Part shown: positions 40,867 to 57,576 of the stretch, piece after piece
Position numbering within the stretch: position 1 is the first letter of the stretch
How the letters are laid out: the number at the start of each line of letters is the position of its first letter
Origin: Ferruginibacter sp.
GTDB taxonomy: Bacteria; Bacteroidota; Bacteroidia; Chitinophagales; Chitinophagaceae
Direction of reading: 5' to 3'
Assembly (NCBI GenBank): GCA_031422055.1
Contig: JANOPU010000073.1
Location: 1 to 57,774 of the forward strand
DNA: 57,774 nt
Notes under the pieces: model-generated
Seen by the model: the letters and a program-made list of their open reading frames with translations, nothing else
What the model was told of the DNA's origin: nothing
The model's database searches: none
Translations under genes and position numbers: made by a program

Positions 40867-41099
40867 TTTATAATTAAAAGAAAATGATTAAGCCTCCGAT
40901 TATACCGAATATAAACAGTATTTAGTCCAAAGCAACTTTAGTTCGGTATAATGCCATCTAAGATTTCCACATAGTCCTTTGGACTACTTAATAAATCAAG
41001 ATGGTATTACACTTATAATTTACAACAAATAATAAGATTTATCTATTGTAGAGGGTGTTTTTTTTAATAAAGGTAATTTAATTAAAATCCGATAAGGAC

Positions 41100-41729
41100 T
41101 TATGAAAATGAAGACAACAGTTTTATTTCATTTCGGTATAAAATAACCTTCTTACTGTTCTCCAATTGTTTCAATAATCTGGATATCACCACCCTTGAAG
41201 TAGCTAATTCATCTGCAATAAGATGATGAGATGCTTTTATTACACTGGAGCCTGAAAGCCGCTGTTTTTCCTTTAAATAATCGATCAACCTTTCATCTAA
41301 TTTATGAAAAGCAATACTTTCTATGGATCTTAATAATTCAATAAAACGTTCATTGAAGCTACGCATGATGTAATTTTTCCAGCTGGGGTATTTGCAAAGC
41401 CATTCATCTAACTTAATATGTGGTATAGCTATTAATTCCACATTATCCTCTGCAATAGCTTTCACTTCACTTTTTTTGGCCTCAATGCAACAGCTATAAG
41501 CCATGGAACAGCTTTCACTGCTGGATAAATAATAAAGCAGGATCTCGTTTCCGTTTTCATCCAGGCGTAACACTTTTACTGTTCCTTTCAATATGATGGG
41601 CATCATGCGGATATACTTTCCGTAATCCATGATCAGGTCTCCTTCATTAAATTGCTGCCGGGTACCAAACTGCTGAATCTCCTGTAATAATTTGGGTTCA
41701 AATATTTGCTGAAGGTTTTCTATATTCAT
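41100..41729 (-). CDS. Crp/Fnr family transcriptional regulator
   Basis: cNMP-like domain with ESCSMAYSCC; HTH IADELATSRVVISRLLK. Confidence 0.92.
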   Translation of the reverse strand: MNIENLQQIFEPKLLQEIQQFGTRQQFNEGDLIMDYGKYIRMMPIILKGTVKVLRLDENGNEILLYYLSSSESCSMAYSCCIEAKKSEVKAIAEDNVELIAIPHIKLDEWLCKYPSWKNYIMRSFNERFIELLRSIESIAFHKLDERLIDYLKEKQRLSGSSVIKASHHLIADELATSRVVISRLLKQLENSKKVILYRNEIKLLSSFS

Positions 41730-41996
41730 TTTACTATTTAAAAATAATAGTTTATACCAATGTGATTTTTAAAATATGCCAATATTTAAAAAATCTTACA
41801 GTGGTTTATGCCGACCTGTGCCGATTTTACGGTATGGTATCAAACAAATGGTACAATGAGGCGAAGCCGATATTGGACTATATTGTTTGTCTAATCGGTA
41901 TTAAAACAAAATTACACAGAAACATTTCTATAATATTAAACTCACATTTTTATTTAATCCGTTTCTCCATCTTTCATAATTTTATGAAATAAATAT

Positions 41997-43685
41997 TTAT
42001 CGAAACTGGTAATCGACCCCGGTTACTTGCGTAAGCAATGTTTGCGGAGCATCTAAAATATCAGCATTTAACGGAACCGTTGGTGTAACCGGTGAATTGG
42101 CTGCCAGGTAATCCTGCATAACTGAATGAAGTGTATGATGTGTATTTTTCGCATTCGATACATTTCTCATCCTGCAAAGCATATCTGAAGGATCGCCATC
42201 CCTCTCGCAGGCGCAGATTTTATATAATTTATCCGGGACAAGTATTTCATCCCTAACCGAAATATCTTTCACTCGTTTACCTTTCTCGCCAAAAGCATTA
42301 AAAGTTATTTTCATTCCTTTAAACTTGATGAGCCATCCACCAAAACGTTCAGATGCATTTTTTGCAAATACATTATGCAATTCACTTTCTAACCATTCTT
42401 TGATCTGTTTTCCAGTAACAGTTCCTACTCTTACCGTACTATCCACCGGGAACATATCATAAATATATCCATCAGTTATGGGAATATTCCCGGTATGATC
42501 AGGAGTTACTCTGGGTGGACAAAAACGAAATCCATTTGACAACACAATATCCACTTCAGGCAGTTTCCATTTTATGGCATCCAGAATCATTGTATCTATG
42601 GGATTTTCTACCACAAAGTACCGATACAATGGTATAGTACTATATCCTGCTATAGAATAAATATTTTTTTCAAATGGCTTTTCATTTTCTTTTATTAAGG
42701 CTGTCATTTCCTTTGAAGGCTTATATTTAACTGCACTAACCTCCACCAATTCATATGTATCTTTTATCACTTGTCCATTTTGTATGGTAAGATCAAGTTT
42801 GCCAACAAATGAACCAAAGGCACCAGGTTCTACAACTTTACTGAATGTACATTGAATAGGTTTGCGAACTCTTTCATGTGTATCACCCCCAAGAATATAA
42901 TCAACTCCTTTGCATGCTTCCAAGTTTGCCAAATGAATTTGCTGCGATAAACCCAAATGAGCAACAATTAAAACATAAGCGCATTGCTCCTGATTGCGCA
43001 GCACATCAGCATAATGAGCAAGGTTTTCTTCAGGCTTTGTGTAAATGATCCCTTTGCTGTAATTAGGCGATTGTCTTAAAGGAACCAATGGATCTGTATA
43101 TCCTAAAAAACCAATTTTTACCCCTTTAATATTCCAGATATAATATGGGGGGAATATCAATTCTCCTTTTTTGTTATCACCCAGATCGTGATACATGTTT
43201 GCACAAACCTTTGGAGCGTTCAATGAGCCCAGTAATGTTTGCATGGCTTTTTTATAATAAATAACTTCCCAGTTTCCAGGGAGGTACAGGTCATAACCCA
43301 GTGCATTTAAAATGGGCACTATTGCTTTGCCTGTTGTTTTTACGGATAGTTCGCTGCCCTGAAACATATCACCGGTATCAATTAAAAAAGTATTTGTATT
43401 TTTTTTTCTTTCGTTTTCCAGATAAGTTGCTAAATGAGCATATCCGCCGGTTTTACGAAATACCGCTTTATCATTTTCCCAGAACAGTTCATCATGCGGA
43501 TGTACCTGACAGTGCACATCGGTAGTTTGTAAAATTGAAATGGTAAATGGTTTGCCATCAGAAGATATTATATCCTTATCATTATTTTCAATGGTTTCAG
43601 CAATAGAGCTTAAGGGTGCAGAAGCCAGTAATCCGGCTCCACCTAATGTACTTATCTTTTTTATAAAATCTCTTCTGTTGTTCAT
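41997..43685 (-). CDS. Tat-exported SoxB-like / 5'-nucleotidase-family dimetal hydrolase
   Basis: Tat motif NRRDFIKK; TDVH, DTGDMFQGS, PGNWE, GGDTHE and SNGFRF motifs; directly downstream of tsdA. Confidence 0.75.
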   Translation of the reverse strand: MNNRRDFIKKISTLGGAGLLASAPLSSIAETIENNDKDIISSDGKPFTISILQTTDVHCQVHPHDELFWENDKAVFRKTGGYAHLATYLENERKKNTNTFLIDTGDMFQGSELSVKTTGKAIVPILNALGYDLYLPGNWEVIYYKKAMQTLLGSLNAPKVCANMYHDLGDNKKGELIFPPYYIWNIKGVKIGFLGYTDPLVPLRQSPNYSKGIIYTKPEENLAHYADVLRNQEQCAYVLIVAHLGLSQQIHLANLEACKGVDYILGGDTHERVRKPIQCTFSKVVEPGAFGSFVGKLDLTIQNGQVIKDTYELVEVSAVKYKPSKEMTALIKENEKPFEKNIYSIAGYSTIPLYRYFVVENPIDTMILDAIKWKLPEVDIVLSNGFRFCPPRVTPDHTGNIPITDGYIYDMFPVDSTVRVGTVTGKQIKEWLESELHNVFAKNASERFGGWLIKFKGMKITFNAFGEKGKRVKDISVRDEILVPDKLYKICACERDGDPSDMLCRMRNVSNAKNTHHTLHSVMQDYLAANSPVTPTVPLNADILDAPQTLLTQVTGVDYQFR

Positions 43686-43716
43686 GTGGCTGGAATTAAT
43701 TTTTTTCAACTGATAC

Positions 43717-44790
43717 TTATTTTTGTTTTACCGTATCTTCTTTTTTCTTTTGTGCCTCAACGATTGGAATAAATGGCCCGTACTTATGTTGTTTTTCAGA
43801 AAAATTATCAGCATATGGACCAAAAGGATGGTCAACAGGTTTTTTTGATTTGTCGGGCCAGTCTTTTGGTGTATTGATGTGCGGCCTGTTTTGTTTGATA
43901 ACAAAAGCCGCAACATCCCATGCTTCCTCATCAGTTAACTGTGGGTTTTCATGGGTTACACCCTGCGGCATGTTATACTTAACATATTTTGCAAAGTTGC
44001 TGATCCTGTATAATCCGGCTCCATCATTAAAACTATTGTTTCCCCATAAAGCAGGAAAAGTATATTCTGTTTTATCCGCATTAAATGACCCTTCACCATT
44101 TAGCTGGTGGCAGCTCTGGCATTTTGCTGTATAAACTATCATTCCTTTTTCCGGGTCGGCAGCACGATCAAGAAAAGCAAGGTCTTTAAAACCCGAACCT
44201 GCTGCTTTTTTACCTTTTTCAACATTGGATCCAATATATTGTATATAGGAAACAATGGCAAACATCTCTTTGCCTGTAATATCTAATGCTTTACCATTCA
44301 GGCTTCGTTCAAAACAATCATTTACTCTTTTATAAATATTTTCTAACGATCCGCTTCTTGCCCTGAATTTCGGATAGAGGGATGCAACCGAACCATAGTT
44401 ATTTCCAAAAACGGTTGTGCCTGCCTGTAAGTGGCAATTCTGACAATTTAGCCCATTACTCAATTTTATCACAGTGCCGTTGGGTCCAAGGTATTTCGAT
44501 GTATGCACTATTAATTCTTTTCCATATTCCACCTGTTTCTTTTGCAAAGGATCAGTTATTGAAGCAATTTCAGGTGCTACCCACCAGGCAGCAGTATCCT
44601 TTTTTGCAACTTCATTTACCTTATCATTAGCAGGTATTTTTTCCAAAAGTTTTTCAGGTTGTTTTACATAGTACAAAATAAAAGGTACAGATACCAGCCC
44701 TATCACCAAAATCATAACTACAACCAAAAGTTTATTGATAATAGAAACAAGTCCCTGTGATATGTTATTTTCAACCTCTTCGTTTGGCAT
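43717..44790 (-). CDS. tsdA: Diheme thiosulfate dehydrogenase (TsdA) with N-terminal membrane anchor
   Basis: CQNCH and CQSCH heme motifs, active-site RVNDCFERSLNG, PALWG..SFNDGAG, NMP. Confidence 0.87.
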   Translation of the reverse strand: MPNEEVENNISQGLVSIINKLLVVVMILVIGLVSVPFILYYVKQPEKLLEKIPANDKVNEVAKKDTAAWWVAPEIASITDPLQKKQVEYGKELIVHTSKYLGPNGTVIKLSNGLNCQNCHLQAGTTVFGNNYGSVASLYPKFRARSGSLENIYKRVNDCFERSLNGKALDITGKEMFAIVSYIQYIGSNVEKGKKAAGSGFKDLAFLDRAADPEKGMIVYTAKCQSCHQLNGEGSFNADKTEYTFPALWGNNSFNDGAGLYRISNFAKYVKYNMPQGVTHENPQLTDEEAWDVAAFVIKQNRPHINTPKDWPDKSKKPVDHPFGPYADNFSEKQHKYGPFIPIVEAQKKKEDTVKQK

Positions 44791-44809
44791 AAAAGGATTC
44801 TGTAAAAAA

Positions 44810-45223
44810 TTAATGAGGTAACTTATCTTTTAATAATCCGTATAAATAGGTTCCAACAATTGCAAAAAGAAATACAATGGTCATTGACAAAAAACCATAC
44901 CCAATATTTACCACCATTGGCCCCGGGCAGGCACCACTCAGCGCCCATCCCAAACCAAAAATGGTACCACCTAAAATATACCGGATGAAAGATTTTTCTT
45001 TAGGATAAAATGTAATCGGGTTACCATGAAAATCCCTGATATTAAATTTCTTAATCAATGCAACTCCCAGAACACCCAATGTAACTGCAGTACCTATGAT
45101 ACCGTACATATGAAAAGCCTGGAAACGAAACATTTCCTGTATCCTGAACCATGAAATGGCTTCTGATTTTGCCATAACAATTCCGAAGACAATACCCAGT
45201 AAAAGGAATTTTATAAATTTCAT
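44810..45223 (-). CDS. YeeE/YedE family sulfur-compound transporter half (PmpA/B-like)
   Basis: GG.IFGLGWALSGACPGP motif, about 4 TM helices. Confidence 0.88.
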   Translation of the reverse strand: MKFIKFLLLGIVFGIVMAKSEAISWFRIQEMFRFQAFHMYGIIGTAVTLGVLGVALIKKFNIRDFHGNPITFYPKEKSFIRYILGGTIFGLGWALSGACPGPMVVNIGYGFLSMTIVFLFAIVGTYLYGLLKDKLPH

Positions 45224-45227
45224 TTGA

Positions 45228-45785
45228 TTAAAAAATTAAAGGAAGAATTAAAAAAGTCATAATTAAACCGCCAACAAAAAAACCGATCACTGCAATCAGG
45301 GAAGGCAATTGCAGGTCCGACAATCCGCTTATGGCATGGCCGGATGTGCAACCACCGGCATAACGGGAACCAAATCCAACCATAAGGCCACCAAATGCCA
45401 ATACCAAAAATCCTTTTATGGAAAGAACTGAATCCAAACTAAAAAGCTCAGCCGGTTGCAATGACGAAGGTGCTGCAATACCTAATTTAGACAGATCATT
45501 GATGGTTGCTGTTGAAATTTCAACAGGAATATCTGTTGATAAAAACTGTTTTGCAATAAACCCACCAACAATGGCGCCCACTAAAAAAACAAGATTCCAA
45601 AGCTGGGATTTCCATTTAAAATCAAAAAAAATAGTCTTTTTACCTAATCCGGCCGCAGCACAGATGGTTTTCAAATTGGAAGAAAAACCAAAAGACTGAC
45701 CGAAGTACAAAAGGAAAAACATGATAGCTGCTATCATCGTACCCGAAAACCACCACGACCATGTTTGTGTTATTAATTCTCTCAT
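45228..45785 (-). CDS. YeeE/YedE family sulfur-compound transporter half (PmpA/B-like)
   Basis: GG.MVGFGSRYAGGCTSGHAISG motif. Confidence 0.9.
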   Translation of the reverse strand: MRELITQTWSWWFSGTMIAAIMFFLLYFGQSFGFSSNLKTICAAAGLGKKTIFFDFKWKSQLWNLVFLVGAIVGGFIAKQFLSTDIPVEISTATINDLSKLGIAAPSSLQPAELFSLDSVLSIKGFLVLAFGGLMVGFGSRYAGGCTSGHAISGLSDLQLPSLIAVIGFFVGGLIMTFLILPLIF

Positions 45786-45795
45786 GAAATTTAAA

Positions 45796-46632
45796 TTATT
45801 TATTTAATTGAAATGAAATAATTGGTTTGAATAAATGATTGATGAGCTTTTCAGTTGCACTCTGATGAAAAATCCCACCTTTACCATGTGTACCGATACA
45901 AATTATATCCATATTGATCATTTGGTTAAAACGAATAACACCGTTCTCTACATCTTAATCATTTATTAAATGACATTCATAATTAGTAATATTATTCAAT
46001 GAGGAAAAATTTTTCATATTTGCTTCCACAGATATTTTTTCTATATCAACATTTCCGGAAGTGATCTGAAGCAGATGAAGTTTAGTATCAAAAGCATTTA
46101 TTAGTTTATACATCAAACTTAAATTTTCAGGTACAGGGTCACTGAAATTGTGCACTAATAGAATATTCTTAATTACAAGATCTGAACGGTCGCACATCAA
46201 TGATAACATGGGTATTCTTGATTTACGAGCTATTATTTGTGTTTCAGATCCTGATAGTTTTTCTTTAATACCCCACGCCCCTTTAGTGCCCATTACAATA
46301 ATATCAAACTGATGCTGTTCAGAGAAATTCAAAATAGCATCCGTTACTTTTCCCAAAACCAGATTGGTATGAATTTGATTACCATACAATGTTTTAAGAT
46401 TTGCTAATTTTCTTTCAGCGATCTCTTTTTGCTTGATCACAAAATTCACATCAATTTCTCCGCAGGTTTGAATGCTGCCGGTTGCATCCATTGTAACAGT
46501 ATCCGGTACGGTAAGTACATGTAAAAAATGAATATCAATGGCTGCTTTCTCTTCTAATTTTTTAACCATCAGGTAGGCAAATTCAGCCTGAACCGAAAAG
46601 TCTGTTGGGATCAATATTTTTAAACTACCCAT
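45796..46632 (-). pseudogene. Tandem-domain universal stress protein with an in-frame nonsense codon
   Basis: KILIPTDFS and IVMGTKG...GS. TAA at 45955-45957; the same frame continues 52 codons (DVENGVIRF...DIICIGTHGKGGIFHQSATEKLINHLFKPIISF) to a stop at 45796. Confidence 0.8.
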
Positions 46633-46652
46633 CTTTATTAAATATTTGCAGG

Positions 46653-47990
46653 TTAATTATTTGCCGTTCTTTTCAGATACACTTTGATAATTTTATTACT
46701 AGCTTTACTTTCTTTACCGGTATTATCCCAAAATATATTTTTATTACTGCTGTTGATTCCGCCTACAATATATCCAATGAGTATTTCATTTTTTTTAATA
46801 GCATTCAGATCAGCTATGCCTTCTTTATACATGTTAGCATCCGGCATAAAAATAAATTCAGCAGCAGCGCCTAAATATCCGGGCATTTGTATGGGCATAT
46901 AAGTTTCTTCAACCTTATCATTATTACGAGTAATTACGCTAATCGTTTTTGTAAAAGGAACATTCGTATTATTCACTATTTTACCGGTATTGCCGGGATA
47001 GTATTGTGCAATGCCGCCAAAAAAAACAGAATACATACTTGTTGTTGCTTTATCAAACATAGGTAATACCGCACTATGATAATGACTGAATTTTTGTTTA
47101 AACCTTTTATTCACTTTATAGGTTCCTCCAACAATATCAACGAAGTTAGTGAATGGCAGGTCTTCTTTATATTGAAATACACCGGAATACATAGTGTAAC
47201 CCAATTGATCATTTACAAAAACCTGCGGCACTAAATTATAATCCCGGCGATGGAGGTTGATGCTATCCTTTATTGCTGAGTAATTATTTATTACCGGGAA
47301 TTCATTTTCGTTGCCTAATAAAAATTTTCTGATCTCATTGGTATATTCCTGTGTAAAGCCGGGACCGTGATCCGGCCCCATTGGATTGTACACTCCGTCA
47401 AACTTTTGTCCACCGGCTAAAATAAATGTATCTCCTATCATACCAAGCCTGCCACCTGTTACCGCCATTCGTTCATCCCGAATCTGTACAATTGAATTAT
47501 TTACATCGTTTTTATTCATTATTGCATTGATCAATTCATCGACTTTAATTACTGTTAAATAAGGAAATGTTGTATGGTCATCAATAGTTTTGCTATATCC
47601 ATACCCTCCGGTTAACACAAGCCTGTTACCGGTCTGGTAAAACTCCAGATTGGTACTTTTTAATTGTTCTTTGATAGAAACAGGAAAATTTTCTACCGAT
47701 TGCTTCCATACTTTTTTTAAAACCGGATCAACTACGTAGATATATTTGTTTTGCCCTGCTTCATCAAAAGCTGCCCAAGGCTGTCTTCGGTGAAGGCCAT
47801 CTTTTCTACCGGCAACCAACAACCATTTTCCCTGCCAGGTTGCATAAGCAAAAGATTGCAAGGCAGGCAGGTTGGTTATTTCAACTTGCTCCAGACGTAT
47901 TGAAAAAGGTATTTTTTTTTCAGCCGTTTGTGCATCAGCGATTATTACTGTTAAATTGAAAACCAATACTAGTAAAAAATACTTTTTCAT
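46653..47990 (-). CDS. Uncharacterised exported protein (possible Kelch-like beta-propeller)
   Basis: Signal peptide; repeated hydrophobic-GG strands (LLVAG, VLTGGY, ILAGGQ, FFGGI, IVGGI); inside the sulfur operon. Confidence 0.75.
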   Translation of the reverse strand: MKKYFLLVLVFNLTVIIADAQTAEKKIPFSIRLEQVEITNLPALQSFAYATWQGKWLLVAGRKDGLHRRQPWAAFDEAGQNKYIYVVDPVLKKVWKQSVENFPVSIKEQLKSTNLEFYQTGNRLVLTGGYGYSKTIDDHTTFPYLTVIKVDELINAIMNKNDVNNSIVQIRDERMAVTGGRLGMIGDTFILAGGQKFDGVYNPMGPDHGPGFTQEYTNEIRKFLLGNENEFPVINNYSAIKDSINLHRRDYNLVPQVFVNDQLGYTMYSGVFQYKEDLPFTNFVDIVGGTYKVNKRFKQKFSHYHSAVLPMFDKATTSMYSVFFGGIAQYYPGNTGKIVNNTNVPFTKTISVITRNNDKVEETYMPIQMPGYLGAAAEFIFMPDANMYKEGIADLNAIKKNEILIGYIVGGINSSNKNIFWDNTGKESKASNKIIKVYLKRTANN

Positions 47991-48080
47991 CGGGCAAGCG
48001 TTTATTTTAATGGCTGATTGATTTTGATTTTTTTCCTGTTATTTAAAATTAAAAGCAATCTTTCGCCTGCATTTACTTAA

Positions 48081-49496
48081 TTATACTTTCATCACTTTAC
48101 TCTGACAAACAAAATTAGTCCTTGGTACTTTAGTATTACTTATTGCTTTAAATCCCCCTTCCACTTCAGTAAAATTTCTGTACCCTCTAGACTGTAATAT
48201 AGAAGCTGCGATCATGCTTCTGTAACCTCCTGCGCAATGGATAAAAAAATGTTCTTTGGGATTGATGTCTTTTATCCATTCATTAATATTAGCCAATGGT
48301 CTGTTATAAGCATCTTCAATGTGTTCAGCTGTATATTCTATTTCCTTACGAATATCTAAAATTTTGTCCTTCCTAATTTCCACTTCACCTGCAAATTGTT
48401 CTGCTGTGATCCTGTCTATCACATCAACTTCTTTACCGGCAGTCAGCCATGAATTAAAACCGCCTTTTAAATGTCCCAATAAATTATCGAAACCAACGCG
48501 ACTCAATCTTGTTACAGATTCTTCTTCCTTACCTTCATCTGTAACCAGCAACAATGGTTGTTTCACATCTACGATCAAAGCGCCAACCCAGGGTGCAAAA
48601 TCTCCATCCAAACCAATGCTTACTGATTGTGGTATAAACCCTTTGTAGAAATCTGTATTGGTCCTTGTATCTAATATTAAAGCATCCGTATTTTCTGCTG
48701 CTGCTTCAAATTCATCCGGAGTTAAAGCTCTCATGCCATTGTTTAAAACGGTATCAAAACTTTCAATTCCTTTTTTATTCATTGCCACGTTCAATCCAAA
48801 ATATGCCGGTGGCGGAAGTAATCCTTCTGTTACTGCTTTTACAAAAGATGTTTTGTCGGGTTGGTTTAATGCATAATTCATTCTCTTTTGATTACCCAGC
48901 GTATCAACAGTTTCTTTCATCATGTTTTTACCGCAGGCACTTCCGGCACCATGGGCGGGATAAACAATAACATCATCTGCCAGAGGCATGATCTTATTCA
49001 TTAAACTATCGTATAACAAACCGGCTAACGCTTCCTGTGTTATGTGAGCGGCTTTTTGTGCCAGGTCAGGACGGCCAACATCTCCCAAAAACAAGGTGTC
49101 GCCACTGAAGATGCAATGATCTTTTCCGGTTTCATCCTTTAACAGGTAAGTAGTACTTTCCATGGTATGGCCGGGTGTGTGCAGTACTTTGATTGTAATA
49201 TCACCAATTTTAAATTCTTCTCCGTCTTTTGCAGAAATAAAAGTGAACTCAGGTTTTGCATTGGGGCCATAAACAATTGCAGCACTGGTTTTCTTTGAAA
49301 GGTCTAAATGGCCGGATACAAAATCAGCATGAAAATGGGTTTCGAAAATGTATGTTAGTTTCACCCCGTCTTTTTGCAAACGATCTAAATATGGCTGTGT
49401 TTCACGAAGCGGGTCAATGATAGCAGCTTCCCCATTACTGGTAATGTAATATGCACCTTGTGCAAGGCAACCGGTATAAATTTGTTCAATGTTCAT
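48081..49496 (-). CDS. MBL-fold persulfide dioxygenase fused to two rhodanese domains (CstB-like)
   Basis: ETHFHADFVSGH, HTPGHT, GDTLF.GDVGRPDL, HGAGSACGK, C-terminal active rhodanese CAGGYRS. Confidence 0.88.
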   Translation of the reverse strand: MNIEQIYTGCLAQGAYYITSNGEAAIIDPLRETQPYLDRLQKDGVKLTYIFETHFHADFVSGHLDLSKKTSAAIVYGPNAKPEFTFISAKDGEEFKIGDITIKVLHTPGHTMESTTYLLKDETGKDHCIFSGDTLFLGDVGRPDLAQKAAHITQEALAGLLYDSLMNKIMPLADDVIVYPAHGAGSACGKNMMKETVDTLGNQKRMNYALNQPDKTSFVKAVTEGLLPPPAYFGLNVAMNKKGIESFDTVLNNGMRALTPDEFEAAAENTDALILDTRTNTDFYKGFIPQSVSIGLDGDFAPWVGALIVDVKQPLLLVTDEGKEEESVTRLSRVGFDNLLGHLKGGFNSWLTAGKEVDVIDRITAEQFAGEVEIRKDKILDIRKEIEYTAEHIEDAYNRPLANINEWIKDINPKEHFFIHCAGGYRSMIAASILQSRGYRNFTEVEGGFKAISNTKVPRTNFVCQSKVMKV

Positions 49497-49554
49497 GGTA
49501 TAATCTTTTTAATTATTTATTATGCAAAGTTGAGATATTGTTCAAACATGTTTG

Positions 49555-49568
49555 GTGACTTTTGTTGC
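49555..49568. promoter_or_regulatory. Candidate regulator box upstream of the PDO-rhodanese gene
   Basis: GTGAC-N4-GTTGC, starting 30 bp from the CAAA of the -7 element (49525). Confidence 0.5.
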
Positions 49569-49703
49569 TTTTGAGTATTTTATGAGATGACTATTTTAAT
49601 GTATTTCATCGCTTGTTAATACATTTATAACATCTGTTTTTTGAGAAAGGAGTAACATAAAACTCATTCATAATTATTCTATAAACAGGAATTGCAACTG
49701 TTA

Positions 49704-50519
49704 TTAATTCCCGCCGCCCGATGGGGAAAATACTTCTTTGACAATAATATAAATACCCATAACCAACACAAACCAGCCAAAAGCCTTTTTCAATTTTTCT
49801 CCGGGTATTTTTTTTGATAGCAGTATCCCAATAAAAATACCAACTACAGCAGAGGCTGTAAAACTTGCGAGTAATTTCCAATCGATGACCTCACTACCTT
49901 GAAGATCGCCAATAAACCCAATCAGTGATTTGGCAGCAATGATAAAGAGTGATGTGCCAACTGCCAGTTTCATTGGCATTCGAGCAAGCAATACCAAGGC
50001 AGGGATAATTAAGAATCCACCACCGGCTCCTACCAGGCCTGTAAGAATACCAACCAGAGCGCCTTCCAATAAGATCACCGGGTAGTTGTAGATCATAGGA
50101 GCTTTCTCATCAATCTCTTTTTTCTTTCCGGGCCTGATCATACTGACGGATGCGAGGATCATTACCACAGCAAAAAGTATCATCAATGCAATAGGTTTTG
50201 TAATGATAAAGCTGCCTATTGAAAAAAGTTCTTTAGGAATGATAGGCACCAGCCACATCCTGGTTGCATAAACAGCGGCAATGGATGGGATCCCGAAAAT
50301 TAAAACTGTTTTAAAATCCACCCGCTTTTGAATAGCGCTTTGTACGCCACCCACCAAAGCAGTAGAACCAACTATAAATAGAGAATAAGCTGTAGCCAAA
50401 ACAGGATTTATACCCATTACGTAAACTAAGATCGGAATCGTTAAAATAGAACCGCCGCTTCCGATAAGCCCCAGTGATACTCCAACCAGCGATGCTAAAA
50501 CATAACCTAATATTTCCAT
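49704..50519 (-). CDS. Sulfite exporter TauE/SafE family protein
   Basis: LGLIGSGGSILT.P, GLVGAGGGFLIIPAL and AVGTSL motifs. Confidence 0.92.
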   Translation of the reverse strand: MEILGYVLASLVGVSLGLIGSGGSILTIPILVYVMGINPVLATAYSLFIVGSTALVGGVQSAIQKRVDFKTVLIFGIPSIAAVYATRMWLVPIIPKELFSIGSFIITKPIALMILFAVVMILASVSMIRPGKKKEIDEKAPMIYNYPVILLEGALVGILTGLVGAGGGFLIIPALVLLARMPMKLAVGTSLFIIAAKSLIGFIGDLQGSEVIDWKLLASFTASAVVGIFIGILLSKKIPGEKLKKAFGWFVLVMGIYIIVKEVFSPSGGGN

Positions 50520-50572: not shown

Positions 50573-50586
50573 GTTACTTTGGTTAC
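50573..50586. promoter_or_regulatory. Candidate regulator box upstream of tauE
   Basis: GTTAC-N4-GTTAC, starting 30 bp from the CAAA of the -7 element (50543). Confidence 0.5.
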
Positions 50587-50680
50587 ATTCAAAATAATAA
50601 TCAAAAATAATAATACTACTATAACAATACCTGGCGAAGTAATCAGGTAAATTATCTGTAACCTGAAAGTTCAAGTAGTG

Positions 50681-50752
50681 TGGCCTCGCCAGGAATCGAA
50701 CCTGGGTCTGGAGCTTCGGAAACTCTTATACTATCCATTGTACTACGAGGCC
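50681..50752 (-). tRNA. tRNA-Arg (anticodon CCG)
   Basis: GGCCTCG acceptor stem pairs with CGAGGCC-A; anticodon loop TTCCGAA; T-arm CCAGG-TTCGATT-CCTGG; CCA not encoded. Confidence 0.93.
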
Positions 50753-50768
50753 AATAATCTTATAACTT

Positions 50769-50833
50769 AACTCTTTATACTATCCCCGTCCGAACGGTGT
50801 TCAGCCGGGCGGGCATTGTACTACGAGGCCAAT
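50769..50833 (-). pseudogene. Duplicated 5' half of tRNA-Arg interrupted by a 29-bp palindrome
   Basis: aactctttatactatc[cccgtccgaacggtgttcagccgggcggg]cattgtactacgaggccaat versus the intact aactcttatactatccattgtactacgaggccaat (50721-50755). Confidence 0.85.
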
Positions 50834-52051: not shown

Positions 52052-53992
52052 CTAAAATTTCAACATAACTCCCGCCATAAAATTAAAGCGCCTGCTGTTA
52101 TATCCTCTTACTTCAAAATATTTTTCATCCGTAATATTCTTCAGGTCGGCATACAATTTAATGTTTTTTGTTACTACATAAGATGAATAAAGATTCCAGG
52201 TATAATATGCCGGCATTTCTATTGGTGCAGACGCATAAACCGCCTCGGCTCTTTTACTTATACTTTGAATACCAGTATTTATGATCCAGCCTTTAAGTAT
52301 CTCCAGATTAATATTTAAATTAATGGCTTGCCTGGGTCTGCGGTATAAATTAAAATAAGAGGTGTCTTTATTATTCTCATTAGTCTCAATATAGCCATCC
52401 ATGTTCGTATAATTGGCATTGAGCTGGATCTTACCAAAATCTATCATTGCTTCCAGTTCAATTCCTTTTACTTTTTGTTTATTGGCATTAATGTAATAGC
52501 TTTCATAGTTGGGTGGGCCGGCACTGAAGAATTCAATATTATCATTAACATCCCTGATAAAATATACAGCCCGAAGATTTACTTTTTCTTTTTTGTATTG
52601 AATACCGCCTTCATAACTGATAGATCTTTCAGGTTTAAGTTCGTTTATAGGGTTGCGATATTCAGAATAAACCTGGTACAATGAAGGTGCTTTGAATCCC
52701 GATGTAATGTTGGCAAATAATTTGATCTTTTTATTAAGATTATAAGACGGGTTAAAAGAAAAAGTAAATACATCTCCGTACTTATTAAAATTATTATACC
52801 GGCCACCTAACTCCAGGTTAAACCCTGCTATATCTTTCACCACAACTGAAGCATATACTCCAAACTGTTTAACTTTAGCACTATCACCCAATGCAGTTTT
52901 GAAAGGACCAAAGCTACTAAGTGACAAATAACTCTGATCGGTTGATTGTTGGCGATAATCTGTACCAACCAAAATATCAATATTTTTAGTTACAAATAAA
53001 TTACTGTACAGTTCCATAAAATGAGCCTTACCATTATAATTCCCCTGACTGAAATAAGAAAAAGCATTTTGGGGTACAGAGACAGAATCATCTAAGTATA
53101 TTCGTTCGGTTTGGTTGAAACTATAATTAAAATGTATCATACTTTTACCTAAAGTATAATCTATTCCAGCGCCTGCTAAAATATTTTTTGTGGTAAATGT
53201 ATAGTCAGCATCATCTGTAAACTGTCCGGCATCAGAATCAGCATTATAATGACTGTATTGTGCGTTTAACCGTACCAGTAAATTATTAGTAATTTTTTGA
53301 TCGATGTTTGCCCTGATAACATTTTCATTAAACGCATCTTTATCAAAATTACCAATCCCATTTTCATCATATGCTGAAGAAAACCCTTTATTGAATAATT
53401 TACTGTATTGAATACTATAATTGGTTTTATTCAAAGTACCATTGATACCGATTGATCCTTTAAAATTATTATAAGTACCGGCAGCAAGATTAGCTGTTAC
53501 TGAAAATTTTTGAGGTCCGCCTTTTTTAGTAATTACATTAATGACTCCTGCTATGGCATCGCTGCCATATAAAGTTGATTGACTCCCTTTCAATATCTCC
53601 ACCCTTTCAACCTGGTCAATTGAAATGAAATTCAGGTCAAAGGCACCACTGATTCCTGATACATCATACAAAGGAATTCCATCAATCAATATCAGTGTTT
53701 TGCCTGCACTGGCTCCCCGCATATACACATCCTGGTTTGTTCCCAGCGTATTTCCACTTCCGGTAACTGTAAAACCTGCCTGTGTGTGAAGCACCTCCGT
53801 TAACGTTTTACCAGCATTTCTTTCAAGTTCCTGTTGAGAAATTACCGTAAGGACTTTTCCCGTAAGTGATTGTTTGATTGGAAATTTTGTAGCGGTAACC
53901 ACTACTTCATCTAATTGTTTGGTACTGTCTTGTTGTGCGTACGCTTGACTGCTGATAATAATAGCAGTCAGCATAAAAAATTTCTTTTTCAT
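52052..53992 (-). CDS. btuB: TonB-dependent cobalamin receptor
   Basis: LDEVVVTA TonB box, ILIDGIP, ERVEILKGSQSTLYGSDAIAGVINVIT plug motif, C-terminal Phe; cobalamin riboswitch upstream. Confidence 0.88.
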   Translation of the reverse strand: MKKKFFMLTAIIISSQAYAQQDSTKQLDEVVVTATKFPIKQSLTGKVLTVISQQELERNAGKTLTEVLHTQAGFTVTGSGNTLGTNQDVYMRGASAGKTLILIDGIPLYDVSGISGAFDLNFISIDQVERVEILKGSQSTLYGSDAIAGVINVITKKGGPQKFSVTANLAAGTYNNFKGSIGINGTLNKTNYSIQYSKLFNKGFSSAYDENGIGNFDKDAFNENVIRANIDQKITNNLLVRLNAQYSHYNADSDAGQFTDDADYTFTTKNILAGAGIDYTLGKSMIHFNYSFNQTERIYLDDSVSVPQNAFSYFSQGNYNGKAHFMELYSNLFVTKNIDILVGTDYRQQSTDQSYLSLSSFGPFKTALGDSAKVKQFGVYASVVVKDIAGFNLELGGRYNNFNKYGDVFTFSFNPSYNLNKKIKLFANITSGFKAPSLYQVYSEYRNPINELKPERSISYEGGIQYKKEKVNLRAVYFIRDVNDNIEFFSAGPPNYESYYINANKQKVKGIELEAMIDFGKIQLNANYTNMDGYIETNENNKDTSYFNLYRRPRQAINLNINLEILKGWIINTGIQSISKRAEAVYASAPIEMPAYYTWNLYSSYVVTKNIKLYADLKNITDEKYFEVRGYNSRRFNFMAGVMLKF

Positions 53993-56394: not shown

Positions 56395-57576
56395 ATGGAT
56401 ATCTCTTACATCATCAATGAACTGGCGGAAGATCGTAAAGATTATTTTAATGCCATTGCCCCTCCCATCATTCAAACCAGTAATTTTTCATTTAAAACAG
56501 TTGATGCCATGCGTCATGCACTGGCAGATGAATATTCAACCTTTCTTTACAGCAGGGGGAATAATCCCACAGTTGATATCCTTTGTAAAAAATTAGCTGC
56601 TTTGGATGGCGCTGAAGATTGCCTTGTCTTTAATAGTGGAGCCGCTGCCATATTTGCATCTGTATTAGCCAATGTAAAAGCGGGTGATCATATAGTTAGT
56701 GTTGACAAACCGTATACCTGGGCACAAAAAATGTTCAATGATATCTTACCAAGGTTTGGAATTACAACTACATATGTTGATGGCCGTTATATTGAAAATT
56801 TTGAACGGGCCATTTTACCAAATACTACAGTGATATACCTGGAAAGCCCCAATAGCTGGGATTATGCTTTACAGGACCTCAAAGCCGTTGCTGAACTGGC
56901 ACGTGCTGAAAACCTGCCTGGCCGGCAGGCAGGTATTATTACAATTTGCGACAACAGTTATTGCACCCCCATTTATCAACGGCCATTTGAATTTGGAATT
57001 GATATAGTGATACAATCAGCCACAAAATATATCAGCGGCCATAGTGATACAATTGCCGGTGTACTCAGCGGCAGTAAACAAATGATCGAACGTATCTTCA
57101 AAAGTGAATACATGAATATCGGCAGTGGTATTCAACCATTCAATGCATGGTTACTGATCAGGGGATTAAGAACATTACCTGTAAGACTGGAACATATCAG
57201 CAAGTCAACAAAAAAAATAGTTGAGTTTTTAAAGCAGCATCCAAAAGTAGAAGAAGTGATCTTCCCTTTTGATGAAAGCTTTTCTCAATTTGAATTAGCG
57301 AAGCAACAAATGACTGGCGCATGTGGTTTACTCACTTTTATTATTAACGCTAATAGCTGTCGCCAGATTGAGATTTTTTGTGAAAAACTACAGCATATAT
57401 TAATGGCTGTAAGCTGGGGTGGACATGAAAGTCTTATTATTCCAAAAATTATAAGCATAAAACCAGAAGAATTTGACCCTGCCAATAAAGACCACCGGAT
57501 GCTTCGAATGTATGTTGGCCTTGAAGATCCTGTTTACCTGATCAATGACCTCGAACAGGCATTTTCAGTCTTATAA
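56395..57576 (+). CDS. PLP-dependent Cys/Met metabolism enzyme (cystathionine gamma-synthase/lyase family)
   Basis: YSRGNNPT, FNSGAAA, LESPN, DNSY, SATKYISGHSD (PLP Lys), SWGGHESL. Confidence 0.92.
   Translation: MDISYIINELAEDRKDYFNAIAPPIIQTSNFSFKTVDAMRHALADEYSTFLYSRGNNPTVDILCKKLAALDGAEDCLVFNSGAAAIFASVLANVKAGDHIVSVDKPYTWAQKMFNDILPRFGITTTYVDGRYIENFERAILPNTTVIYLESPNSWDYALQDLKAVAELARAENLPGRQAGIITICDNSYCTPIYQRPFEFGIDIVIQSATKYISGHSDTIAGVLSGSKQMIERIFKSEYMNIGSGIQPFNAWLLIRGLRTLPVRLEHISKSTKKIVEFLKQHPKVEEVIFPFDESFSQFELAKQQMTGACGLLTFIINANSCRQIEIFCEKLQHILMAVSWGGHESLIIPKIISIKPEEFDPANKDHRMLRMYVGLEDPVYLINDLEQAFSVL
56913..56933. repeat. 21-bp GC-rich palindrome in-frame within the PLP enzyme gene
   Basis: cctgcctggccggcaggcagg; reads N-LPGRQAG-I. 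Confidence 0.8.

What the first reader, a model, noticed from the sequence alone, without database searches (positions are those of the whole stretch)
41100..50519. SoxYZ-less TsdA/SoxB-like/persulfide-dioxygenase sulfur cluster in a Bacteroidota genome
Seen: nine co-directional genes. From the hypothetical gene to the soxB-like gene the gaps are only 4-31 bp. Order: tauE, CstB-like PDO-rhodanese, unknown exported protein, usp, yeeE half x2, tsdA, soxB-like, crp/fnr. No soxYZ, soxAX, soxCD or sqr in the window. Established: S. aureus CstB turns persulfides into thiosulfate; TsdA interconverts thiosulfate and tetrathionate; canonical SoxB acts on SoxYZ-bound substrate; a TsdA+SoxB+sulfur-dioxygenase route to zero-valent sulfur was reported in Erythrobacter flavus. 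Inference: this is a compact carrier-independent sulfur loop (thiosulfate to tetrathionate, then sulfate plus sulfane sulfur, YeeE/TauE transport, cytoplasmic PDO) in a heterotrophic lineage not usually credited with thiosulfate oxidation.
Basis: partly seen in the sequence, partly recalled or inferred. Interest (0 to 1): 0.85.

Follow-up and report, generated by a model that had tools for sequence, protein, structure and literature searches.

The report
Carrier-free thiosulfate-to-sulfur gene cluster, Bacteroidota
This Bacteroidota genome carries a thiosulfate dehydrogenase gene next to a close relative of the sulfur-releasing hydrolase shown by knockout in Erythrobacter flavus, and no genes for the usual SoxYZ carrier were found, so it likely turns thiosulfate into sulfate and elemental sulfur by a known but little-studied route, here likely switched on by its own Crp-type activator.

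Summary
The nine-gene cluster is real. Two corrections: usp carries a premature stop, and there are probably two promoters. No soxY, soxZ, soxX, soxA, soxC or sqr was found in the assembly (100% complete, 341 contigs). TsdA keeps its catalytic residues. The 'SoxB' is not canonical SoxB: it scores 231 against a cut-off of 550, and a tree test rejects that grouping. It forms one clade (100/100) with the counterpart of E. flavus D0Y83_01365, the hydrolase whose knockout blocks sulfur formation. It lacks the catalytic His of nucleotidases. The clade was found in 17 of 400 phylum genomes: 15 with TsdA, none with SoxY. Zhang 2020 (Table S5) already lists SoxYZ-less TsdA+SoxB Bacteroidetes, and this scan reported the cluster three times on other DNA. 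Lack of sqr is peculiar to this genome; 16 of 23 relatives have it. Added here: a conserved GTRAC-N4-GTYAC operator at a fixed distance from the promoter, likely bound by the adjacent Crp/Fnr protein, for which I found no description. Verdict: variant of a known pathway, interest 0.42.

The parts
50573..50586 (-). Predicted operator (GTAAC-N4-GTTAC type, 1 mismatch), followed after 26 nt by TTTG, upstream of tauE
49704..50519 (-). TauE/SafE sulfite-exporter family membrane protein, 271 aa
   Evidence: PF01925 E 5.7e-42
49555..49568 (-). Second predicted operator, same 26-nt spacing to TTTG, upstream of pdo
48081..49496 (-). CstB-type persulfide dioxygenase-rhodanese fusion, 471 aa; H54-x-H56-x-D58, loop C188-G189, rhodanese C421, R383, R426
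   Evidence: Pfam; full-length match to PDB 3tp9 (E 1e-64) and 3r2u (E 4e-57); residues compared with CstB C201/C408/R370/R413 of PMC12934615
46653..47990 (-). Exported protein of no Pfam family, predicted kelch-type beta-propeller; many homologues carry a T9SS sorting domain; likely a passenger
   Evidence: (pLDDT 89.8)
45796..46632 (-). usp (two-domain universal stress protein) interrupted by TAA at codon 226 (ORF ends at 45955; frame continues to 45796)
45228..45785 (-). Half-size YeeE/YedE protein with the conserved Cys (GGCTSGH)
   Evidence: PF04143; translation
44810..45223 (-). Partner half-size YeeE/YedE protein (DUF6691) with the conserved Cys (GACPG)
   Evidence: PF04143, PF20398; translation
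43717..44790 (-). TsdA dihaem thiosulfate dehydrogenase, N-terminal hydrophobic anchor; CxxCH at 116 and 224, catalytic Cys159, K271-x-N273-M274
   Evidence: PDB 4wq7 E 1.2e-40 with aligned residues
41997..43709 (-). Tat-exported SoxB-like dimetal hydrolase of the E. flavus D0Y83_01365 clade (likely start ATG at 43685); D64, H66, D114, N146, W147, H251, D276, H278, R395
41752..41913 (.). About 160-bp multicopy repeat in the soxB-crp gap, where close relatives carry an OprD-family porin gene
   Evidence: 39 blastn hits of this gap in the genome, itself included; relatives
41100..41729 (-). Crp/Fnr-family regulator with a Cys cluster (ESCSMAYSCC) and an NtcA-like recognition helix (SRVVISR); likely activator of the operators

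Best explanation
The cluster likely runs the Erythrobacter-type, carrier-free thiosulfate pathway: periplasmic TsdA would join two thiosulfates to tetrathionate, and the Tat-exported SoxB-like hydrolase would cleave sulfate from it, leaving sulfane or elemental sulfur. Further inferred steps: the two YeeE halves import that sulfane sulfur as thiol persulfide; the CstB-type dioxygenase-rhodanese oxidises it to thiosulfate; TauE exports the oxyanion, which can re-enter at TsdA; electrons from TsdA go to the cytochrome c respiratory chain (no tsdB was found). The Crp/Fnr protein likely activates two promoters, before tauE and before pdo, plus paralogues on contigs C33 and C204. Shown by my calls: gene identities, active-site residues, clade membership, linkage, failure to find Sox genes, and the operator motif. 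Inferred: every activity, the direction of TsdA, the transport substrates and the regulator-operator pairing. The physiological gain is likely supplementary energy plus disposal of reactive sulfur in a heterotroph, not lithoautotrophy.
For: (1) Published E. flavus 21-3 primers (PMC7608252 Table S2) locate a near-identical cluster copy in L085: 6 of 9 primer strings match, and the soxB and D0Y83_01360 junctions bracket L085:1917-3575. That gene is 40% identical to the window protein over 430 aa, E 5e-121, against 27% for Paracoccus SoxB. (2) Tree: the window's clade plus that gene has 100/100 support, apart from canonical SoxB; holding the Bacteroidota proteins with canonical SoxB is rejected, p-AU 1e-134 (53-row quick tree agrees). 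(3) In E. flavus the knockout of that gene accumulates tetrathionate and makes no elemental sulfur in liquid culture (PMC7608252 section 18). (4) GNWE replaces the nucleotidase GNHE in 120 of 120 close homologues, and the Arg of SoxB's RW/RF motif is kept (GFRFC in 120 of 120). (5) In the same 400 genomes: clade in 17, TsdA in 15 of those 17 against 38 of the other 383, SoxY in 0 of 17; SoxZ in 0 of 24. (6) The gene order hydrolase-dsrE-porin is shared by L085 and Bacteroidota relatives. (7) Half-size YedE1E2 imports zero-valent sulfur (PMC10812762); CstB makes thiosulfate using residues kept here (PMC12934615). (8) The operator-promoter spacing peaks at 26 nt: 55 hits against 7-16 at 11 of 12 other spacings and 23 at 27 nt, in 37 loci.
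Against: No purified enzyme of this clade was found to have been assayed; the E. flavus evidence is genetic, and its soxB mutant still made some sulfur on plates. Two metal ligands differ from canonical SoxB (Asn146 for His, Asp276 for His). TsdA has the K-x-N-M haem-2 motif of the reduction-biased C. jejuni enzyme (PMC5146829), although the E. flavus-like TsdA has it too. In 5 of 23 relatives tsdA is unlinked and in 2 it was not found. This copy shows decay: broken usp, and no porin, DsrE or SQR. The L085 copy of the hydrolase has a premature stop and stands in for a sequence I could not fetch. Kin are not independent, so the co-occurrence counts overstate. No RNA data were available.
Confidence: 0.6

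Rival explanations
1. Bound-substrate or repair model: the hydrolase does not attack free tetrathionate but strips sulfate from Cys-S-thiosulfonate adducts that tetrathionate forms on thiols (periplasmic DsrE, other proteins, or its own Cys397/501/512). The cluster then serves detoxification of polythionate and persulfide stress, with TsdA possibly running as a tetrathionate reductase.
For: Tetrathionate S-thiosulfonates SoxY in vitro, the adduct type that the Sox model gives SoxB as substrate (PMC5336275). A periplasmic DsrE sits near the hydrolase or tsdA in many relatives, including tsdA-only loci. ACERDGDP is kept in 113 of 120 and LCR in 118 of 120 close homologues. SQR is present in 16 of 23 relatives. 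TsdA has the C. jejuni-type Asn.
Against: The E. flavus D0Y83_01360 knockout, which is the DsrE gene by position, still forms sulfur. No DsrE was found in G000. The E. flavus-like hydrolase lacks those cysteines. Canonical SoxB hydrolyses free trithionate (as cited in PMC5336275).
Confidence: 0.25
2. The cluster is a decaying remnant in this genome and no longer works as a pathway.
For: usp nonsense codon; porin replaced by a repeat element; the osmC-sqr-dsrE block of G001 and G010 is missing; the clade was found in only 6 of 24 same-genus genomes.
Against: tsdA, the hydrolase, pdo, both yeeE genes, tauE and crp are intact with all key residues, and both operators are kept at the conserved spacing. 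G012 and G015 also lack the porin and DsrE at this locus.
Confidence: 0.08
3. The hydrolase is an ordinary periplasmic 5'-nucleotidase that happens to sit beside sulfur genes.
For: Most databases annotate it so; it has the nucleotidase-type Asn ligand; Foldseek ranks 3ive/3ivd almost level with SoxB; the TIGR04486 score is below cut-off.
Against: The catalytic His of GNHE is replaced by Trp in 120 of 120 homologues. It groups with SoxB and a second SoxB-like clade (98/96), away from UshA and the genome's own nucleotidase on C146. It is linked to tsdA across families, on plasmids and in L085.
Confidence: 0.05
4. A Sox system in an unassembled part of the genome serves this enzyme.
For: The assembly has 341 contigs, and a second sulfur cluster is cut by contig ends (tauE on C204, pdo on the 3.5-kb C33).
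Against: SoxY 0 of 17 and SoxZ 0 of 24 genomes with the clade, including single-contig genomes. SoxY in the phylum sample is confined to two families (43 of 86 and 3 of 3), one of which has a canonical sox cluster.
Confidence: 0.02

Closest known systems
Erythrobacter flavus 21-3 TsdA-'SoxB' (D0Y83_01365)-SdoA/B pathway (Zhang et al. 2020, PMC7608252)
   Same: TsdA plus a hydrolase of the same clade (40% identity; GNW, DTHE and GFR motifs; DYxFR C-terminus); no soxYZ found here, and the paper's pathway does not use it; hydrolase-dsrE-porin order in relatives.
   Different: No tsdB, no adjacent cbb3 oxidase genes and no second or third SoxB-like paralogue here. The dioxygenase here is CstB-type, predicted to yield thiosulfate, whereas sulfite is proposed for SdoA/B. 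The predicted regulator is Crp/Fnr. This genome has no DsrE or porin homologue by search.
Canonical SoxB thiosulfohydrolase (TIGR04486; PDB 2wdc, 4uwq)
   Same: Same fold (TM 0.82), Tat signal, Trp in place of the nucleotidase catalytic His, substrate Arg.
   Different: 23-27% identity, score 231 against cut-off 550, Asn and Asp in place of two His ligands, a separate clade, no SoxYZ/AX partner found.
TsdA of Allochromatium vinosum (PDB 4wq7) and Campylobacter jejuni
   Same: Two haems, catalytic Cys in the CFERS motif, distal Met.
   Different: N-terminal membrane anchor; Asn at the Lys208 position as in C. jejuni; no TsdB found.
Staphylococcus aureus CstB and CstA/TauE (cst operon)
   Same: PDO-RHD-rhodanese architecture, loop Cys-Gly, rhodanese Cys and two Arg; a TauE gene next door.
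   Different: No CstR, CstA or SQR here; coupled instead to periplasmic thiosulfate enzymes.
YedE1E2 / PmpAB half-size sulfur transporters
   Same: Two adjacent half-size YeeE genes, each with one conserved Cys, next to pdo.
   Different: Substrate untested here; Bacteroidota sequences.
NtcA/CRP class II activation
   Same: Recognition helix aligns with NtcA; GTA-N8-TAC-like palindrome centred 37 nt before the end of the TTTG promoter element.
   Different: Cys-rich sensor domain and sulfur target genes; no description found in two literature searches.

Membership tests
Canonical SoxB (TIGR04486) | Score above the curated cut-off | tested here: not met
   231 bits against 550
Canonical SoxB (TIGR04486) | Monophyly with SoxYZ-associated SoxB | tested here: not met
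   AU test p 1e-134
Canonical SoxB (TIGR04486) | Trp in place of the catalytic His, and the substrate Arg (Trp175, Arg416 of T. thermophilus; numbering recalled, paper not held) | tested here: met
   W147 and R395 align
Canonical SoxB (TIGR04486) | His ligands at the 174 and 297 positions (recalled numbering) | tested here: not met
   Asn146 and Asp276
Canonical SoxB (TIGR04486) | soxYZ and soxAX in the genome | tested here: not met
   assembly 100% complete but in 341 contigs
E. flavus D0Y83_01365-type SoxB-like hydrolase | Same clade as the knockout-tested gene | tested here: met
   100/100 support using the primer-anchored stand-in in L085
E. flavus D0Y83_01365-type SoxB-like hydrolase | Co-occurrence with TsdA without SoxYZ | tested here: met
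   15 of 17 with TsdA, 0 of 17 with SoxY
E. flavus D0Y83_01365-type SoxB-like hydrolase | Tetrathionate converted to sulfate plus zero-valent sulfur | not testable with these tools
   needs an assay or a knockout
5'-nucleotidase (UshA/CD73) | Catalytic His in GNHE | tested here: not met
   GNWE in 120 of 120, GNHE in 0 of 120
TsdA | Two CxxCH, catalytic Cys, distal Met | tested here: met
TsdA | Thiosulfate-oxidising direction in vivo | tested here: inconclusive
   K-x-N-M is shared by C. jejuni (reduction bias) and the E. flavus-like enzyme
CstB-type persulfide dioxygenase | HxHxD, loop Cys-Gly, rhodanese Cys with two Arg | tested here: met
   that 3r2u is S. aureus CstB is recalled
CstB-type persulfide dioxygenase | Thiosulfate as sole product | not testable with these tools
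   needs an assay
YedE1E2/PmpAB transporter | Two adjacent half-size genes, one conserved Cys each | tested here: met
Crp/Fnr class II activator regulon | Palindrome at a fixed distance from the promoter of target genes | tested here: met
   spacing peak at 26 nt; 7 of 11 relatives' tauE genes with the site against 48 of 2277 genome ORFs
Crp/Fnr class II activator regulon | Binding by this protein and sulfur sensing | not testable with these tools
   needs EMSA and a reporter

The most novel reading that the evidence does not exclude
The GNW/DTHE clade is a separate enzyme family: a carrier-independent, neutral-pH tetrathionate hydrolase. It is mostly annotated as 5'-nucleotidase and scores below the SoxB cut-off, so soxB surveys would miss it. 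With a thiosulfate-making CstB it would close a thiosulfate loop in common aerobic Bacteroidia, under a so far undescribed Cys-rich Crp/Fnr sulfane-sulfur sensor that activates from GTRAC-N4-GTYAC. That would add a new class of bacterial persulfide sensor and a candidate for the tetrathionate sink that TetH-free sediments lack.
Probability: 0.35. Interest if true: 0.68.

Novelty: new variant of a known kind. Interest (0 to 1): 0.42.

Why it matters
The E. flavus pathway rests on one strain's knockouts. Placing its hydrolase in a defined clade with clear sequence signatures gives cultivable Bacteroidota test hosts (for example the Runella slithyformis and Pontibacter akesuensis plasmids) and a marker for surveys. 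One sediment study found no TetH and invoked SoxB for tetrathionate turnover (PMC12345210). If common heterotrophic Bacteroidia hydrolyse tetrathionate, they contribute to sulfur turnover and acid formation in sediments and sludge. The operator makes the regulator directly testable. The basic observation, TsdA plus SoxB without soxYZ in Bacteroidetes, is already in print, which limits the surprise.

Tried and rejected
Canonical SoxB and 5'-nucleotidase readings: rejected. The 445-aa protein as a TetH-like hydrolase or core part: not supported. It is a predicted kelch propeller with no TetH among the listed matches, it was found in 16 of 400 other genomes, and only 4 of the 17 hydrolase-bearing genomes have it, unlinked. 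The dihaem cytochrome beside the hydrolase in one genus as a divergent TsdA: rejected, it matches dehydrogenase cytochrome subunits. Integration at tRNA-Arg: no 3' duplicate in the window and flat GC, so not supported. The sigma-70 promoter scan was at chance level, 40 against 42. DoxD: only weak partial DoxX-type matches. A primer scan of genome contigs gave one unrelated-looking match, not followed up. No RNA holder listed. The protein Atlas gave no answer. The SoxB structure papers were not held and one guessed id fetched an unrelated paper. Covariation between the Crp helix (RV or RE) and the operator: no clear pattern, several paralogues per genome. Rows dropped: L121 (wrong ORF) from the trees; the careful tree used 27 of the 53 rows; the 53-row careful run did not finish, so one search is the quick tree. 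No complex prediction was run because no binding is claimed.
Full report
Observation. The window is contig C73 of a 3.47-Mb assembly, rated 100% complete with 2.9% contamination, in 341 contigs. Names given to close homologues point to Ferruginibacter or Chitinophagaceae. Gaps are 207, 90, 20, 169, 4, 19, 7 (31 from the hydrolase's ATG) and 267 bp. The 169-bp gap exists because usp stops at codon 226, where two orthologues have AAA and continue to 278 aa. A Logan contig of run X2 matches this stretch with 0 differences. So the tight core is real, but it holds a broken gene.

What the genome lacks. Family searches found no SoxY, SoxZ, SoxC-family molybdoenzyme or DsrE, and no SoxX over cut-off. 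The only SoxA/TsdA-family gene is this one. The controls rang as expected, for example Thermus for SoxY and SoxZ. Paracoccus SoxX, Y, Z, A and C gave no tblastn hit, and three SQR proteins gave none either. Caveat: a second tauE and a second pdo lie at a contig end or on a 3.5-kb contig, so an sqr could be unassembled.

TsdA. It matches A. vinosum TsdA (E 1.2e-40) with both haem motifs, the catalytic Cys159 and the distal Met274. Asn273 replaces Lys208, as in the reduction-biased C. jejuni enzyme (PMC5146829, passages). The E. flavus-like TsdA has the same motif, so direction cannot be read from it. A census of CxxCH proteins showed no tsdB beside it.

The hydrolase. It has a Tat signal and scores 231 on TIGR04486 against a cut-off of 550. 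Its best sequence and fold matches are T. thermophilus SoxB, with a putative E. coli nucleotidase close behind. It has GNWE where nucleotidases have GNHE and canonical SoxB has HWE, keeps the Arg of SoxB's RW motif, and has Asp in place of one His ligand. GNWE, G[GAS]DTHE and GFRFC hold in 120 of the 120 best homologues (6018 matches in all). To see which E. flavus paralogue it resembles, I searched with primers from the supplement of PMC7608252. One of 11 metagenome loci, L085, matched 6 of 9 primer strings. The soxB and D0Y83_01360 primer sites bracket L085:1917-3575, which has a premature stop in that copy. This stand-in for the knockout-tested gene is 40% identical to the window protein over 430 aa; the D0Y83_01405 counterpart gives 24% and Paracoccus SoxB 27%. 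A 53-row quick tree and a 27-row careful tree both nest it inside the window's clade (100/100), apart from canonical SoxB and from two other SoxB-like clades. Grouping the Bacteroidota proteins with canonical SoxB is rejected (p-AU 1e-134). In E. flavus, loss of this gene raises tetrathionate and abolishes sulfur in liquid culture (section 18), with some residual sulfur on plates (discussion).

Distribution. Among 40 relatives, 7 carry the clade, 6 of them among 24 same-genus genomes. In an even draw of 400 phylum genomes, 17 carry it at 44% identity or more, all in the window's class. TsdA was found in 15 of these 17 and in 38 of the other 383. SoxY was found in 46 of the 400, none among the 17, all in two families, one with a canonical sox cluster. 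SoxZ was found in 0 of 24 carriers. Across 23 other carriers, tsdA is adjacent in 12, nearby in 4, elsewhere in 5 and not found in 2; one of those two loci is partly unreadable. The cluster also sits on Runella and Pontibacter plasmids. Relatives often add a periplasmic DsrE and a porin after the hydrolase, as L085 does, and 16 of 23 have SQR. This genome's copy is therefore a trimmed version. Kin are not independent, so these counts are descriptive.

Cytoplasmic half. The dioxygenase-rhodanese keeps counterparts of CstB C201-G202, C408, R370 and R413 (PMC12934615, abstract and passages), which predicts thiosulfate as product. The two YeeE halves each keep their Cys, as in YedE1E2, shown to import zero-valent sulfur (PMC10812762, passages; PMC11582611, passages). 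The 445-aa protein is a predicted kelch propeller of a family often carrying T9SS tails. Only 4 of the 17 carriers have it, unlinked.

Regulation. A palindrome noticed upstream of tauE and pdo in the window was then tested elsewhere. It is present at -50 to -90 in 7 of 11 relatives' tauE genes, against 48 of 2277 ORFs of this genome. After widening the pattern to GTRAC-N4-GTYAC, a change made after seeing relatives, its spacing to TTTG peaks at 26 nt: 55 hits against 7-16 at most other spacings and 23 at 27 nt, in 37 loci. Most of the 55 hits lie before tauE, pdo, yeeE, tsdA, porin, thioredoxin or osmC genes. In this genome, 4 of 6 best composite hits precede tauE or pdo genes, although the genome-wide count at 26 nt is not above other spacings. 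That TTTG is the Bacteroidota -7 element, and that this geometry equals class II activation, is recalled. The adjacent Crp is the only tblastn hit of its kind in the genome. Its helix aligns with NtcA. Homologues occur in 20 of 24 carrier genomes, and 19 of 30 fetched homologue loci have one of the cluster's genes within 1.5 kb. The pairing is inferred.

Prior art. PMC7608252 (passages, sections 16, 18, 20, supplement parts 1-2) describes the pathway and lists Hymenobacter sp. PAMC 26554 and Maribacter sp. T28 as TsdA+SoxB without soxYZ; which SoxB-like clade those two carry was not determined. PMC6704655 (passages) notes tsdA in Cecembia. PMC12345210 (passages) counts 8 MAGs with TsdA and SoxB alone. 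PMC5336275 (passages) cites trithionate hydrolysis by canonical SoxB. Searches listed no experimental study of the Bacteroidota cluster or of this regulator; the library lacks most subscription papers, figures were not visible, and bioRxiv supplements were closed. Three earlier notes of this scan reached the same filing on other genomes.

Verdict. The clade definition and the predicted Crp regulon are the additions. Interest 0.42.

Noticed in passing
window 50680-50752 and 50814-50830 (-): tRNA-Arg(CCG) lies 160 bp upstream of tauE, and an exact 17-nt copy of its 5' end sits 78 bp further upstream beside a 34-bp multicopy repeat; no 3' duplicate in the window.
   Followed up: partly
window 41752-41913 and 40899-41014: Two different multicopy intergenic repeats of about 160 and 115 bp (39 and 62 blastn hits of the gaps in the genome); many copies of the first lie at contig ends and may explain the fragmented assembly.
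   Followed up: partly
G000 C33:899-3161, C204:3807-4513, C322:7077-8917, C180:5565-7158: Further sulfur-related genes: a second pdo with peroxiredoxin, a second tauE cut by the contig end (both with the predicted operator), a third pdo behind an ArsR-like gene, and an MFS-rhodanese pair.
   Followed up: partly
L053:6604-13533 (Pontibacter akesuensis plasmid): Three SoxB-like genes from three different clades side by side, echoing the three paralogues reported for E. flavus.
   Followed up: partly
L104, L105, L106, L107: In four genomes with tsdA but without the hydrolase clade, a periplasmic DsrE gene follows tsdA closely, suggesting that DsrE partners TsdA rather than the hydrolase.
   Followed up: no
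L058, L061, L062, L063: In one genus the hydrolase lies apart from tsdA, between an unrelated dihaem cytochrome gene and an amidase, while tsdA sits with pdo, yeeE and porins elsewhere.
   Followed up: partly
L150, L152, L154, L162: In four genomes a homologue of the Crp regulator lies divergently next to sqr and near tauE.
   Followed up: partly
L113:5992-7419 (Sporosarcina plasmid): A second SoxB-like clade, apparently without signal peptide, beside a TusA/DsrE/pdo/tauE persulfide cluster in a firmicute; it also has Trp in place of the catalytic His.
   Followed up: no
L027 (G017): usp, yeeE, tsdA and the hydrolase are all split by frameshifts in this genome, more likely sequencing error than biology.
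   Followed up: no
window 56395-57576 (+) and 52052-53992 (-): A Cys/Met PLP-dependent enzyme and a TonB-dependent receptor lie within 7 kb of the cluster; no link was tested.
   Followed up: no
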